Virus record (IMG/VR): IMGVR_UViG_3300017912_002752
DNA length: 64,000 nucleotides
Strand: one strand, 5' to 3'
DNA from: a virus
Lineage: Duplodnaviria; Caudoviricetes
Under the pieces are notes generated by a model. It searched no databases. It saw only the letters and a list, made by a program, of their open reading frames with translations, and was not told the DNA's origin. The position numbers and the translations under genes were made by a program. Position 1 is the stretch's first letter. Each line of letters begins with the position of its first letter. Below, one piece after another: positions 36,801 through 58,199 of this stretch.

Positions 36801-36862
36801 ACCAAATCCGTACCATCGAGTGTTTTATGAAATTATGTCAGTATTTGTATGACATTTTGTCA
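36801..36862 (-). promoter_or_regulatory. Sigma54-like promoter with two upstream TGACA-N3-TGTCA-type palindromes
   Basis: Minus strand TGGTACGGATTTGGT (36801-36815) vs TGGCACG-N3-TTGCW; palindromes at 36828-36840 and 36850-36862. Confidence 0.55.
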
Positions 36863-56106: not shown

Positions 56107-56357
56107 AAATATGAGAATAATTTAATTACATAGTAAAGGTAAGGTTCTGCTTATCTAATTTATACGATTTAGCAGGTATACCAAAACGCCAATAACAATA
56201 CTTTGTACCCTCATCGATTTCAGACTTAGTTATATTACCTACCTTCTTAAACATTACCACCTTTTTTAACTTCGGTTTCCAAGTTACATTAATTCCCTTT
56301 AACATATAATTTACAATTTTAATTGACCCCTCATTATGGGGAGAGGATTACCCTTAG

Positions 56358-56443
56358 TACCGATGGGCGGGCTCGAACCGCCACGGACATTACTGCCCAA
56401 GGGATTTTAAGTCCCTCATGTCTACCAATTCCATCACATCGGC
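56358..56443 (-). tRNA. tRNA-Leu(UAA)
   Basis: GCCGATG..AGGGA-CTTAAAA-TCCCT, long variable arm, GGTTCGAGCCC..CATCGGT-A. Confidence 0.95.
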
Positions 56444-56530
56444 TTACAAAAATTTCGTGGACATCAAAGATACAAATACTATATATACTACTACATAGGT
56501 ATATGCTAAAAGAAATCCAGCTAAATTTAG

Positions 56531-56604
56531 TGTTCCCAATAGGATTTGAACCTATGACCTACTGATTATGAGTCAGTTGCTCTAACCATCTGAGCTATGA
56601 GAAC
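56531..56604 (-). tRNA. tRNA with CAU anticodon (Ile2-type or elongator Met)
   Basis: GTTCTCA..ACTGA-CTCATAA-TCAGT..GGTTCAAATCC..TGGGAAC-A. Confidence 0.9.
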
Positions 56605-56614
56605 CAAATAAGGT

Positions 56615-56762
56615 AGGAATAGGTAGGAATCGAACCTACTATGGCACATCTCGTGTTTCGAACCACTTGATAACTCCACCACAGAGTATTGATGAGAGAC
56701 CCATGTCTCTTATAGGGAAGTTACTCCCAACGGTTTCATCGAACCTTCACCATTACTATTCC
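56615..56762 (-). ncRNA. 148-nt tRNA-like RNA: acceptor stem and T-arm enclosing a multi-hairpin core
   Basis: GGAATAG/CTATTCC acceptor; GTAGG-TTCGATT-CCTAC T-arm; five internal hairpins; lies between tRNA-Arg and tRNA-CAU. Confidence 0.8.
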
Positions 56763-56783
56763 ATATTTTCAAAGAACTCTTAG

Positions 56784-56857
<74 letters not shown>

Positions 56858-56877
56858 ATATCATCAACTTTACAAGG

Positions 56878-56934
56878 TAAAGATACGCAAACACTTTTTA
56901 ATTTCCAAACTTTTAATGTTAAATAATTGTTAAA
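56878..56934 (-). promoter_or_regulatory. Conserved 57-bp phage promoter, copy 6 (tRNA operon)
   Basis: TTTAACAATTATTTAACATTAAAAGTTTGG..CGTATCTTTA. Confidence 0.8.
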
Positions 56935-56935
56935 T

Positions 56936-57297
56936 CAGAGGAAGTAAGGCAAAATAAAGTTGGCTAACTCAGTAGAATACTGGCTCAGAGGGGACTTTCC
57001 CTATGGTAAAAAACCGACCCCGGTATGAAAACGACTCACAGGCCGTTGTAACTTGCTGATACTCAACGGTTTACACGAAAATACCCGCCCCCCTCGCTCG
57101 GCGACATGCGTCGCCTCGCTGGGTTGGTCCACTTCTCGGACCTCATCTGGCTTATTTAGCTAAAATTATTTCAGCTTACCTACTGGCTGGCAGGCTTGGT
57201 GTGGGTGTCCCTACCTCTGTATCCCTATATACGGGCTATTTTAGCTATTTTATTTTTATGTCACCGCAAGAAATTTAGCGTAGGGGCAGTCTTTCCC
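56936..57297 (-). ncRNA. Candidate ~360-nt GC-rich structured RNA or cis element
   Basis: No ORF >=60 aa; directly after promoter copy 7; multiple hairpins and long-range complementarity. Confidence 0.4.
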
Positions 57298-57301
57298 AAT
57301 A

Positions 57302-57358
57302 TAAAGATAAAAAAATTAACTGACATAGCCAAATTTTTAATGTTAAGTTTATGTTAAA
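57302..57358 (-). promoter_or_regulatory. Conserved 57-bp phage promoter, copy 7
   Basis: TTTAACATAAACTTAACATTAAAAATTTGG..TATCTTTA. Confidence 0.8.
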
Positions 57359-57400
57359 TCTTTACATGACACAATGTCAGTTGCGTTGAGGGCTGAAAAG

Positions 57401-57441
57401 TTATCCACAATTTGCGAAAGTTATTAACAAAGTTATCAACA
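57401..57441 (+). promoter_or_regulatory. Cluster of three co-oriented DnaA-box(-like) 9-mers
   Basis: TTATCCACA (57401, perfect), TTATTAACA (57421), TTATCAACA (57433), each preceded by AAAG. Confidence 0.6.
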
Positions 57442-57771
57442 TGACACGATGTCACATATATCGCTCATTTTCATAAACCCTTGAGCGTCAGAGGATTATG
57501 CGCTATTACCTAAAGTACCACTTTAACATGACAAAATGTCCTAAAAATTTCTCAGCCAGGAAAAAAATTGTTTTGCCGCAGAAAACGGACTTGTGCCTGT
57601 CTTAATTTCTGTATAATTCGTATATGTGGGGTAATTTGGGTCTGAGTTTATGAAATATGTGGTAAAATTATATTAGCCCTACGGATTTGATGGATATGTC
57701 GAGGTGTGACAACTTGTCCAATTAAAAAAAACACGGATAAATTAAGGAATAAAAGGGCACGAGTTTACCAT

Positions 57772-57811
57772 TAAGTGGTAAAAAGTGGTAAAAAAGGGGA
57801 GAAAAGTGTGG
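57772..57811 (+). repeat. Roughly 10-bp-period AAGTGG repeats (MraZ-box-like)
   Basis: taagtggtaa aaagtggtaa aaaaggggag aaaagtgtgg. Confidence 0.5.
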
Positions 57812-57983
57812 TTATTTGTCTAACCAATGAAACCATCGGTTCATAATGAACCAAAAAAGGACCATAATAAGGATTATCTTTATGATTAACATATACGCTA
57901 AATAAATATCGTCTGAGAACTTGTTTCGATGACTTATATGGGGTTATTTTAGGCCTGTTAAATTTCGTGGGTAATTAAGGACT

Positions 57984-58199
57984 CTACCCTACGATTATTG
58001 TCTTACCTTGATTCCAGCTCGTCATATGGTATCGGAAGTCGTGTAAGTCTAAGAACTCGTGAACTATCCTACGCATTTCAGCTGAATTACCATGAATGAT
58101 TTGTGTGTCAAGATAAGGTTTGTCGTACCCTAAAAGGTTTTGCTCTAAAATAATTTCAGCGTCCTTATGTCTTACTCCATGTAGGTCAATTATCTTCAT
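57984..58199 (-). CDS. Stand-alone Smr/MutS2-domain protein
   Basis: IDLHGV...A, IIHG, NQGKTII. Confidence 0.75.
   Translation of the reverse strand: MKIIDLHGVRHKDAEIILEQNLLGYDKPYLDTQIIHGNSAEMRRIVHEFLDLHDFRYHMTSWNQGKTIIVG

What the first reader, a model, noticed from the sequence alone, without database searches (positions are those of the whole stretch)
57360..57980. Gene-free array of host-regulator-like binding sites: origin or DNA sponge
Seen in ~620 bp: three co-oriented DnaA(-like) boxes (57401-57441); TGACA-N3-TGTC(A/C) at 57367, 57442, 57529 and 57707, the same motif as at the Hsp20 promoter; ~10-bp-period AAGTGG repeats (57772-57811); and palindromes GGTTCA-TAA-TGAACC (57838), AAAGT-ACC-ACTTT (57512) and CATAA..TGA-N3-TCA..TTATG (57472). 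Known: TTATCCACA is the DnaA box, and MraZ, the cell-division operon regulator, binds 10-bp-period GTGG/AAAGTG repeats. Inference: a lytic-type phage with its own primase should not need these. As its genome amplifies, the cassette could titrate DnaA, MraZ and a stress activator together, reprogramming host replication, division and chaperone output without any protein. Alternatively it is a host-licensed origin.
Basis: partly seen in the sequence, partly recalled or inferred. Interest (0 to 1): 0.75.

Follow-up and report, generated by a model that had tools for sequence, protein, structure and literature searches.

The report
Phage copy of host MraZ operator
The only long gene-free stretch of this large marine phage carries a conserved copy of the DNA site that bacteria use to control their cell-division operon (the MraZ operator), next to phage promoters and operators, so the phage probably plugs a host cell-cycle regulator into its own control region.

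Summary
The AAGTGG repeats (57773-57812; cores 10, 11 and 10 bp apart) are the best-conserved part of the region: 83% invariant columns against 38% overall. They are the top match in 64 kb and in a 180-kb relative to a matrix built from Bacteroidota mraZ upstream regions. Their 19-mer, searched in about 186,000 bacterial species genomes, lay just upstream of mraZ in 108 of 120 fetched loci. This is an MraZ-operator copy.

The 'DnaA boxes' are not conserved as DnaA boxes. TTATCCACA reads TTATCAACA in a 97%-identical relative. The consensus TTATYAACA is the element that abuts the MraZ boxes at Flavobacteriales mraZ promoters, and it recurs upstream of the phage's own stereotyped promoter.

TGACA-N3-TGTCA is phage-specific. 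It is conserved upstream of the phage Hsp20 gene and was absent near host hsp20 genes in the genomes sampled.

The region is the only long non-coding gap in the genome. It shows no significant RNA structure, and it ends in a promoter driving a non-coding RNA and tRNAs.

Best reading: a transcription-control hub that recruits host MraZ. A decoy or an origin is not excluded.

The parts
57773..57812 (+). Four-box MraZ-operator-like array: AAGTGGTAAA, AAGTGGTAAA, AAAGGGGAGA, AAAGTGTGG. Cores are 10, 11 and 10 bp apart. It reads antisense to the phage genes.
   Evidence: Top hit on both strands of the window and of relative G002 to a matrix built from Bacteroidota mraZ upstream regions (27.2 against 18.2 for the next). 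Only 1 of 200 Markov simulations reached that score. 83% of columns are invariant across four lineages. The 19-mer lies 12-200 nt upstream of mraZ in 108 of 120 bacterial loci.
57741..57772 (+). Conserved block to the left of the array: ATTAAGGAAT (57741-57750) and an inverted box TTTACCA (57764-57770). The inverted box forms the palindrome TTTACCA-N5-TGGTAAA with box 1.
   Evidence: 75% of columns are invariant in four lineages. An inverted box upstream of the direct boxes is also seen in 5 of 20 phage loci, against 1 of 120 host operators.
57655..57668 (+). Isolated MraZ-type box ATGTGGTAAAA. Further single boxes lie at 57622-57636 and 57965-57974.
   Evidence: Five boxes with matrix score of 8 or more fall in 57300-58000, out of 43 on that strand of the 64-kb window. 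The 57655 box is 71% invariant; the other two are not conserved in distant relatives.
57836..57854 (-). Hairpin GGTTCA-TAA-TGAACC followed by TGGTTTCATT, 130 nt after the stop of the upstream gene. Possible weak terminator.
   Evidence: It is the only terminator-like hit in the scan, and the number found is no higher than in shuffles. It is 95% conserved with L011 and 58% with L010.
57442..57454 (.). PAL2, TGACACGATGTCA, a palindromic operator. Other copies: PAL1 57367-57379, PAL3 57529-57540, PAL4 57707-57718, and 36850-36862 upstream of Hsp20.
   Evidence: 8 strand-matches against 0.95 expected. PAL2 half-sites are conserved in L010/L013/L014 with a different N3 spacer. A PAL also lies about 105 nt upstream of the Hsp20 homologue of G002. 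It was not found near host hsp20 genes or enriched in host genomes.
57398..57441 (+). Three AAGTTATYMACA boxes (the 'DnaA-like' boxes), at 57398-57409, 57418-57429 and 57430-57441.
   Evidence: TTATCCACA reads TTATCAACA in G001. The consensus TGTTRATAAC occurs on the gene strand upstream of promoter modules: 5 perfect copies and none on the other strand in the window, and 6 against 2 in the 180-kb relative G002. The same 9-mer abuts the MraZ boxes at Flavobacteriales mraZ promoters.
57290..57360 (-). Stereotyped phage promoter: ATTTAACA-N6-TTAACATTAAAAATTTGG-N20-TATCTTTA. The -33 TTTG is at 57330-57333 and the -7 box at 57302-57309.
   Evidence: Six copies found by pattern, all on the gene strand, against 0 expected; they align in register. 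A looser pattern gives seven copies in the window and 14 in G002. A second copy at 56868-56936 sits 21 nt ahead of tRNA-Arg.
56937..57289 (-). GC-rich non-coding segment transcribed from that promoter (candidate non-coding RNA). It is followed by a second promoter and by tRNA-Arg, tRNA-Met and tRNA-Leu.
   Evidence: No ORF and no Rfam match. Blocks are conserved in L011 and L010. Nearly invariant against G001.

Best explanation
Positions 57360-57980 form the upstream part of the phage's single large transcription-control region. It acts as DNA, not as an RNA gene.

Read in the direction of the genes (right to left), it holds:
1. the end of the chaperone/NUDIX/Smr operon, with a weak hairpin;
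2. a four-box array that copies the host mraZ operator;
3. scattered single boxes;
4. phage-specific palindromic operators, which also precede the phage Hsp20 gene;
5. three TTATYAACA boxes, the same element that flanks MraZ boxes at Flavobacteriales mraZ promoters;
6. a stereotyped Bacteroidota-type promoter that fires into a roughly 350-nt non-coding RNA and a tRNA operon.

Inferred mechanism: host MraZ binds the array, and the unknown host factor that recognises TTATYAACA binds its boxes. A phage regulator binds the palindromes. Together these would tie read-through from the upstream operon, or firing of the promoter, to the host's division and replication state.

What is shown: the sequence identity to natural operators, the conservation, and the promoter architecture. 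What is inferred: the binding itself and its regulatory consequence.
For: **MraZ-operator identity**
- A matrix built from 24 Bacteroidota mraZ upstream regions ranks this site first in the window and in relative G002. Only 1 of 200 simulations reached its score.
- The phage 19-mer was found in at least 120 bacterial loci. In 108 of them it lies 12-200 nt upstream of mraZ on the same strand.
- Flavobacteriaceae operators read AAGTGGTAAA three times in a row.
- Published MraZ sites are GTG(G/T) or GTGG cores with a 10-bp period (PMC12957436; 10.1101/2022.02.09.479790; PMC8475190).

**Conservation**
- The array is 83% invariant against 38% for the region as a whole.
- A more distant relative (L351/L335) has a four-box array in another long intergenic gap.

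**No phage-encoded binder found**
- No MraZ or AbrB/MazE-type gene was found in five related records, including one that is 94% complete.

**Regulatory context**
- This is the only long ORF-free gap: 1210 nt against 205 for the next in G002, and 1678 against 167 in the window.
- It ends in a promoter module.
- In the window the TTATYAACA-type boxes occur only on the gene strand, upstream of promoter modules; in G002, 6 of 8 are on that strand.
- The palindrome is shared with the Hsp20 upstream region in two phages.

**Not an RNA**
- Fold z-scores are -0.3 and -0.75. Rfam gives no match.
Against: - No binding data exist.
- Only two of the four boxes have a perfect GTGG core. Host operators usually have three (83 of 120).
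- The array is about 410 bp from the nearest recognisable promoter and reads antisense to the genes. No conserved Bacteroidota -7 box follows it on either strand, so no simple repression or activation geometry can be drawn.
- The distance from the array to the PAL/BOX block varies between relatives (about 320-400 bp). That fits a free-standing element as well as a promoter-linked one.
- The binder of TTATYAACA is unknown.
Confidence: 0.5

Rival explanations
1. DNA decoy. As phage genomes multiply, the array titrates host MraZ off the chromosomal mraZ/dcw promoter, and the TTATYAACA boxes titrate their binder. Host division-gene expression changes without any phage protein being involved.
For: - The array is an operator copy with no promoter attached to it and a variable distance to neighbouring elements.
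- No phage MraZ-like gene was found.
- The same double box lies in non-coding DNA of about 15 phage lineages, none with mraZ nearby. All 20 loci examined were outside ORFs.
- In B. subtilis the triple repeat is unique to Pmra, so a second high-copy site would compete directly with it (10.1101/2022.02.09.479790).
Against: - There is one array per 180-kb genome.
- Only two boxes are perfect, so the array is probably weaker than the host's three-box operator. Two-box DNA binds MraZ less well than four-box DNA (PMC12957436). A sponge under selection would be expected to carry more or better sites.
Confidence: 0.2
2. Replication origin, or a replication-associated site. The direct and inverted boxes act as iterons next to AT-rich DNA, bound by host MraZ, DnaA or an unrecognised phage initiator. 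The adjacent promoter could supply a primer or an activating transcript, as at phage T4 and T7 origins.
For: - It is the unique long non-coding region of a tightly packed genome.
- It has helically phased direct repeats plus an inverted copy, next to the A/T-rich stretch 57720-57760.
- Boxes within one mismatch of a DnaA box are present.
- A promoter is adjacent.
- Other phage lineages show direct and inverted boxes flanking strikingly AT-rich DNA, for example L336 and L358.
Against: - GC skew is monotonic across the 180-kb relative, so it neither marks nor excludes an origin.
- The DnaB-type helicase gene lies 57 kb away.
- The perfect DnaA box is not conserved.
- The TTATYAACA boxes also occur at other promoters, 13 and 16 kb away.
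- The iteron sequence equals a host operator in phages of different GC content and lineage, which an initiator-specific iteron would not predict.
Confidence: 0.15
3. The repeats are bound only by an unrecognised phage protein, and their likeness to MraZ boxes is convergent. The region would then be an ordinary phage operator cluster with no host regulator involved.
For: - Phage arrays differ in architecture from host operators. A third perfect box is rare (3 of 20 against 83 of 120), and an inverted box is more frequent (5 of 20 against 1 of 120).
- Most small proteins encoded nearby have no recognisable family.
Against: - The exact 19-mer is about 90% specific for mraZ promoters in bacteria.
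- The box variant (T after GTGG) and the accompanying TTATYAACA element both match Flavobacteriales promoters.
- No protein family is shared among the phage lineages that carry arrays, within the DNA fetched.
- No MraZ or AbrB-fold gene was found.
Confidence: 0.12

Closest known systems
MraZ-binding repeats (MraZ boxes, MBRs) of the mraZ/dcw promoter
   Same: - Direct repeats with a GTG(G/T) core and a 10-bp period, in three or four boxes.
- The phage's first two boxes and spacer are letter-for-letter the sequence found upstream of mraZ in Flavobacteriaceae and many other bacteria.
- Published sites: four GTG(G/T) boxes with 6-nt spacers in Mycoplasma genitalium (PMC12957436); three GTGG[A/T]G boxes with 4-nt spacers in B. 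subtilis (10.1101/2022.02.09.479790).
   Different: - The array is in a phage, not upstream of mraZ, and no dcw genes are nearby.
- It is antisense to the neighbouring genes and has no -7 box following it.
- The third box is GGGG in all relatives.
- An inverted box precedes the array.
Host transcription-factor sites carried by phages (LexA boxes of CTXphi and coliphage 186, Fur boxes at Shiga-toxin prophage promoters, IHF sites at lambda promoters); recalled from the literature, not checked here
   Same: A phage cis-element that recruits a conserved host regulator, so that phage expression follows the host's physiological state.
   Different: The regulator would be the cell-division regulator MraZ. 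Four searches of the held paper library that included the term MraZ found no report of a phage site for it. The phage also appears to be lytic rather than temperate.
datA-type titration loci and DnaA-box clusters (oriC)
   Same: Clustered, co-oriented 9-mers within one mismatch of TTATCCACA in a non-coding region. The decoy idea parallels DnaA titration by datA in E. coli (general knowledge).
   Different: - The conserved consensus has A at position 6 (TTATYAACA), not C.
- The one perfect box is not conserved.
- The same motif sits at the mraZ and hupA promoters of the host group and at phage promoters.
Promoter-linked origins of phages T4 (oriF, oriG) and T7; general knowledge
   Same: An intergenic region in which a phage promoter lies next to repeats and A/T-rich DNA.
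   Different: No evidence of initiation here. No skew change was seen, and the replication genes are distant.

Membership tests
MraZ operator (MraZ-binding repeats) | Three or more direct repeats with a GTG(G/T)/GTGG core | tested here: inconclusive
   There are four in-phase boxes, but the cores are GTGG, GTGG, GGGG and GTGT. The third is GGGG in all relatives. The distant relative L351 has GTGG, GTGG, GTGT, GTGT.
MraZ operator (MraZ-binding repeats) | 10-bp (one helical turn) period between cores | tested here: met
   Cores at 57775, 57785, 57796 and 57806 give spacings of 10, 11 and 10.
MraZ operator (MraZ-binding repeats) | Sequence matches natural operators upstream of mraZ | tested here: met
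   AAGTGGKAAAAAGTGGKAA lies 12-200 nt upstream of mraZ in 108 of 120 bacterial loci. The site is also the top matrix hit in two phage genomes.
MraZ operator (MraZ-binding repeats) | Located in the promoter of mraZ / the dcw cluster | tested here: not met
   No MraZ domain was found in five related phage records. Neighbouring genes encode a Smr-like protein, NUDIX, an endonuclease and tRNAs.
MraZ operator (MraZ-binding repeats) | Bound by MraZ | not testable with these tools
   Needs EMSA, pull-down or ChIP with MraZ from a Flavobacteriaceae host.
DnaA-box cluster / oriC-like origin | Several conserved 9-mers matching TTATNCACA | tested here: not met
   One perfect box (57401) reads TTATCAACA in G001. 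The consensus in relatives and at other sites is TTATYAACA.
DnaA-box cluster / oriC-like origin | Strand-composition switch at the site, or adjacency to replication genes | tested here: not met
   GC skew is monotonic over 180 kb, with all genes on one strand. The DnaB-type helicase gene is 57 kb away.
DnaA-box cluster / oriC-like origin | Motif equals the host's own DnaA box | tested here: inconclusive
   - Flavobacteriaceae dnaA promoters carry one TTATTCACA.
- Canonical boxes are neither clustered nor enriched in Polaribacter.
- TTATCCACA occupies the same position next to MraZ boxes in 5 of 57 host loci, where 49 have TTATYAACA.
Bacteroidota sigma-A type promoter (-33 TTTG / -7 TAnnTTTG) | TTTG, a spacer of about 19-20 nt, then TAnnTTTG, upstream of a transcribed gene | tested here: met
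   TTTG-N20-TATCTTTA (7 of 8 positions) in five of six copies. The copy at 56868-56936 ends 21 nt before tRNA-Arg.
Host heat-shock operator | Same palindrome upstream of host heat-shock genes | tested here: not met
   No TGACA-N3-TGTC(A/C) in 98 kb around 30 Bacteroidota hsp20 genes. There were 0-3 copies per Flavobacteriaceae genome, the same as the control pattern.
Structured non-coding RNA | Stable or catalogued structure | tested here: not met
   Fold z-scores are -0.31 and -0.75 for 57600-57870. No Rfam match up to E = 10 apart from chance-level hits.

The most novel reading that the evidence does not exclude
Phages of many lineages carry free-standing copies of the host MraZ operator, here together with the Pmra co-element TTATYAACA. 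These would act as protein-free decoys: as genome copies rise they strip MraZ from the chromosomal dcw promoter and reprogramme host cell division. That would be a DNA-only host-takeover device.
Probability: 0.2. Interest if true: 0.85.

Novelty: new variant of a known kind. Interest (0 to 1): 0.62.

Why it matters
MraZ is one of the most conserved bacterial regulators. In the organisms studied, its triple- or quadruple-box operator was thought to be confined to the cell-division operon. Here a conserved operator copy sits in the main non-coding region of a large marine phage, and look-alike arrays lie in non-coding DNA of about 15 phage lineages.

This would make one of two ideas directly testable:
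- phages read the host's division state through MraZ; or
- phages titrate MraZ to change that state.

The work also defines the mraZ promoter of Flavobacteriales: TTATYAACA, three AAGTGGTAAA boxes and a -7 box. It points to an unknown regulator shared by the mraZ and hupA promoters, whose sites the phage has adopted.

Tried and rejected
- **Rfam**, at gathering and at E up to 10: only tRNAs and chance-level hits.
- **RNA folding of both strands:** not significant.
- **blastn and tblastn against cultured phages:** no relatives.
- **Host assignment from the phage GroEL:** uninformative, about 50% identity to many Proteobacteria.
- **Sigma-70 promoter and terminator scan:** no excess over shuffles.
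- **GC skew as an origin marker:** uninformative, because all genes lie on one strand.
- **Phage-encoded MraZ or AbrB/MazE-type binder:** none found.
- **Host heat-shock link for the palindrome:** none found.
- **Defining the Flavobacteriaceae DnaA box from clusters:** no clusters of TTATCCACA or TTATNCACA. Pairs of TTATYMACA occurred at roughly control frequency, apart from the fmt-hupA spacer.
- **Pfam and PHROG scans of small neighbouring ORFs, and of genes next to arrays in other phages:** no DNA-binding or replication families.
- **A protein shared among array-bearing phage lineages:** none within the DNA fetched.
- **A plus-strand Bacteroidota -7 box after the array, as in host Pmra:** only a TTTG without the TA, and not conserved.

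Full report
**Setting**

All genes in the 64-kb window lie on the minus strand. The stretch 57360-57980 lies between two features. On one side is the stop codon of a 71-aa Smr-like ORF (57984-58199, minus strand; weak Smr match). On the other is a block holding a non-coding segment and three tRNA genes: tRNA-Arg 56783-56857, tRNA-Met 56530-56604 and tRNA-Leu 56357-56443. Upstream genes encode GroEL, a DnaJ-like protein, a cytidylyltransferase-like protein, a non-specific endonuclease and a NUDIX protein. Downstream genes are small auxiliary genes, thymidylate synthase and an Hsp20, followed by very large ORFs (up to 3528 aa) that I take to be structural genes without having tested them.

The window's own assembly is not held. 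Relatives were found in IMG/VR:
- G001/L009, 97% identical;
- L011 (G003);
- L010 (G002, 180,769 bp, 94% complete);
- L012, L013 and L014.

G002 was fetched nearly whole (180,000 of its 180,769 bases). Its GC skew is monotonic, so genes appear to run on one strand throughout.

**The observation**

On the gene strand, this is the only long ORF-free gap:
- 1678 nt in the window, against 167 for the next longest;
- 1210 nt in G002, against 205.

**A stereotyped promoter bounds the region**

The sequence ATTTAACA-N6-TTAACATTARAAnTTTGG-N20-TATCTTTA occurs six times in the window by pattern search. All copies are on the gene strand, against 0 expected by chance. A looser pattern gives seven copies in the window and 14 in G002. 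It fits the Bacteroidota promoter form (-33 TTTG, -7 TAnnTTTG; general knowledge).

One copy ends 21 nt before tRNA-Arg. Another occupies 57290-57360 and fires leftward into 56937-57289. That segment is GC-rich, has no ORF and has no Rfam match. It is nearly invariant against G001 and shares blocks with L011 and L010. So the left end of the finding is the upstream region of a promoter.

**The 'DnaA-like' boxes**
- The perfect TTATCCACA (57401) reads TTATCAACA in G001.
- The conserved consensus is AAGTTATYAACA.
- The same motif lies just upstream of two other promoter copies, at 44017/44028 and at 41617.
- In the window its perfect consensus is only on the gene strand, with 5 copies as TGTTRATAAC and none on the other strand. 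In G002 it is 6 against 2, and five of the six lie within 2 kb of this region.

So the boxes are a promoter-associated element of this phage clade, not a conserved DnaA-box cluster.

**The AAGTGG repeats**

I took the upstream regions of mraZ from 30 Bacteroidota genomes, of which 24 were usable. They carry (A/T)AGTGG(G)NAA boxes at a 10-bp period. A matrix built from them, scored for three boxes in phase, gave:
- window: this site first on both strands, 27.2 against 18.2 for the next;
- G002: the homologous site first, 25.2 against 17.3;
- first-order Markov simulations of the window: mean maximum 15.6, sd 3.6, with 1 of 200 reaching the observed score.

The phage double box AAGTGGKAAAAAGTGGKAA was then searched in one genome per bacterial species. 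Of these, 112 had mraZ within the fetched DNA. In 108 the motif lay 12-200 nt upstream of the mraZ start on the same strand, mostly 50-75 nt. Hits were dominated by Flavobacteriaceae (Polaribacter, Tenacibaculum, Formosa, Maribacter, Aquimarina), Chryseobacterium, Pedobacter and Saprospiraceae.

Published MraZ sites have the same form:
- four GTG(G/T) boxes with 6-nt spacers, seen by cryo-EM in Mycoplasma genitalium (PMC12957436);
- three GTGG[A/T]G boxes with 4-nt spacers, unique to Pmra in B. subtilis (10.1101/2022.02.09.479790);
- AAAGTG[T/G] repeats in Mollicutes (PMC8475190).

The phage array is therefore an MraZ-operator sequence. No MraZ or AbrB/MazE-type gene was found in five related phage records, so host MraZ is the likely binder.

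**Link between the two motifs**

In Flavobacteriales the mraZ promoter reads (A/C)TTAT(T/C)AACA, then three AAGTGGTAAA boxes, then a TAnnTTTG -7 box. Among the 120 host loci:
- 57 have TTATNNACA on the same strand within 60 nt upstream of the double box, and 48 of these are at offset 0 or 10;
- the variants are TTATTAACA (39), TTATCAACA (10), TTATCCACA (5), TTATGAACA (2) and TTATTCACA (1);
- none of the 120 has it in a control stretch further upstream.

So the phage's 'DnaA-like' box is the element that accompanies MraZ boxes in the probable host group. Two copies 21 bp apart also precede the HU gene (hupA), in the fmt-hupA spacer of five Flavobacteriaceae genomes.

Whether DnaA binds this element is open.
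- For: canonical TTATCCACA sits at the same place in some taxa, and DnaA has been proposed to regulate the B. subtilis mra operon (cited in 10.1101/2022.02.09.479790).
- Against: Flavobacteriaceae dnaA promoters carry TTATTCACA, and no clusters define a variant box.

**The palindrome TGACA-N3-TGTCA**

It is over-represented in the window. It lies 89 nt upstream of the Hsp20 gene here and about 105 nt upstream of the Hsp20 homologue (64% identity) in G002. PAL2, together with the two adjacent boxes, is conserved in L010, L013 and L014 with a different central triplet.

It was not found within 1.5 kb of 30 Bacteroidota hsp20 genes. It is no more frequent than a control pattern in five Flavobacteriaceae genomes. 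A phage-encoded regulator is the simplest reading. No candidate was recognised among nearby small proteins.

**Conservation test**

| Segment | Columns invariant across window, L011, L010 and L013 |
|---|---|
| Whole region | 38% |
| MraZ boxes 1-3 | 83% |
| Block to the left of the array, with the inverted box | 75% |
| Single box at 57655 | 71% |
| BOX3 | 67% |

Against L010 alone, BOX3 is 100% identical and PAL2 85%. PAL1, PAL4, BOX1 and the palindromes at 57472 and 57512 are not conserved.

**Other phages**

The double box occurs in 32 IMG/VR contigs, which fall into about 15 lineages. None has mraZ nearby. All 20 loci examined have it outside ORFs of 60 aa or more, often in gaps of 350-1200 nt. 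One lineage (L335/L351) is a distant relative of this phage, with a four-box array in a gap of about 450 nt.

Phage arrays differ from host operators:
- a third perfect box is rare (3 of 20, against 83 of 120 in hosts);
- an inverted box upstream is commoner (5 of 20, against 1 of 120).

**Mechanism**

The region acts as DNA; no significant RNA fold was found. I favour a control hub in which host MraZ, the TTATYAACA binder and a phage regulator act on read-through or on promoter firing. The reasons are that there is a single array of moderate quality, it lies in the one region that ends in a promoter, and the companion boxes are promoter-linked elsewhere in the genome.

A decoy is not excluded. 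No promoter is attached to the array, and its spacing to neighbouring elements varies. An origin is not excluded either: the region is the unique non-coding gap and has phased direct and inverted repeats. However, skew is uninformative and the helicase gene lies 57 kb away.

**Literature**

Four searches of the held paper library that included the term MraZ found no report of MraZ sites in phages.

Another reading of this same stretch exists in the scan, and its follow-up was withheld.

Noticed in passing
window 56937-57296 (minus strand); L011:4990-5480; L010:5370-5720: A promoter-driven, GC-rich non-coding segment of about 350 nt. Blocks are conserved across three phage lineages (GTGAnATAAAAATAAAATAG; GGGTATTTTC; GCCTGTGAGTCG; GGGAAAGTCCCCTCT). 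It has no Rfam match. The fold z-score of the single sequence is only -1.4.
   Followed up: partly
L330-L361 (IMG/VR loci): About 15 phage lineages, with GC from 26% to 53%, carry the MraZ-type double box. It always lies outside ORFs and often in long non-coding gaps. Some carry inverted boxes and very AT-rich repeats alongside (L336, L358, L359).
   Followed up: partly
L195-L265 (host loci); L313, L316, L317, L320, L323: In Flavobacteriales, mraZ promoters read TTATYAACA, then three AAGTGGTAAA boxes, then a -7 box. The same TTATTAACA occurs twice, 21 bp apart, in the fmt-hupA spacer of five Flavobacteriaceae genomes. This suggests an uncharacterised regulator shared by the division operon and HU.
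   Followed up: partly
G087, G089, G090 (Polaribacter genomes): Canonical TTATCCACA is unclustered and rarer than its reversed control (27, 16 and 14 copies against 58, 72 and 72). No close pairs of TTATNCACA exist. The origin and the DnaA box of these bacteria are therefore not recognisable by the usual rule.
   Followed up: no
window 56611-56768: This 158-nt piece, between tRNA-Met and tRNA-Arg, is cleanly absent from the 97%-identical relative G001. It covers the tRNA-shaped RNA noted by another reader.
   Followed up: no
window 41549, 43754, 43995, 54828, 56911, 57335 (plus 36194 by a looser pattern): A stereotyped promoter of about 57 nt with a conserved double TTTAACA upstream element. 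Between the window and G001, substitutions cluster in the 20-nt spacer while the flanking elements stay fixed.
   Followed up: partly
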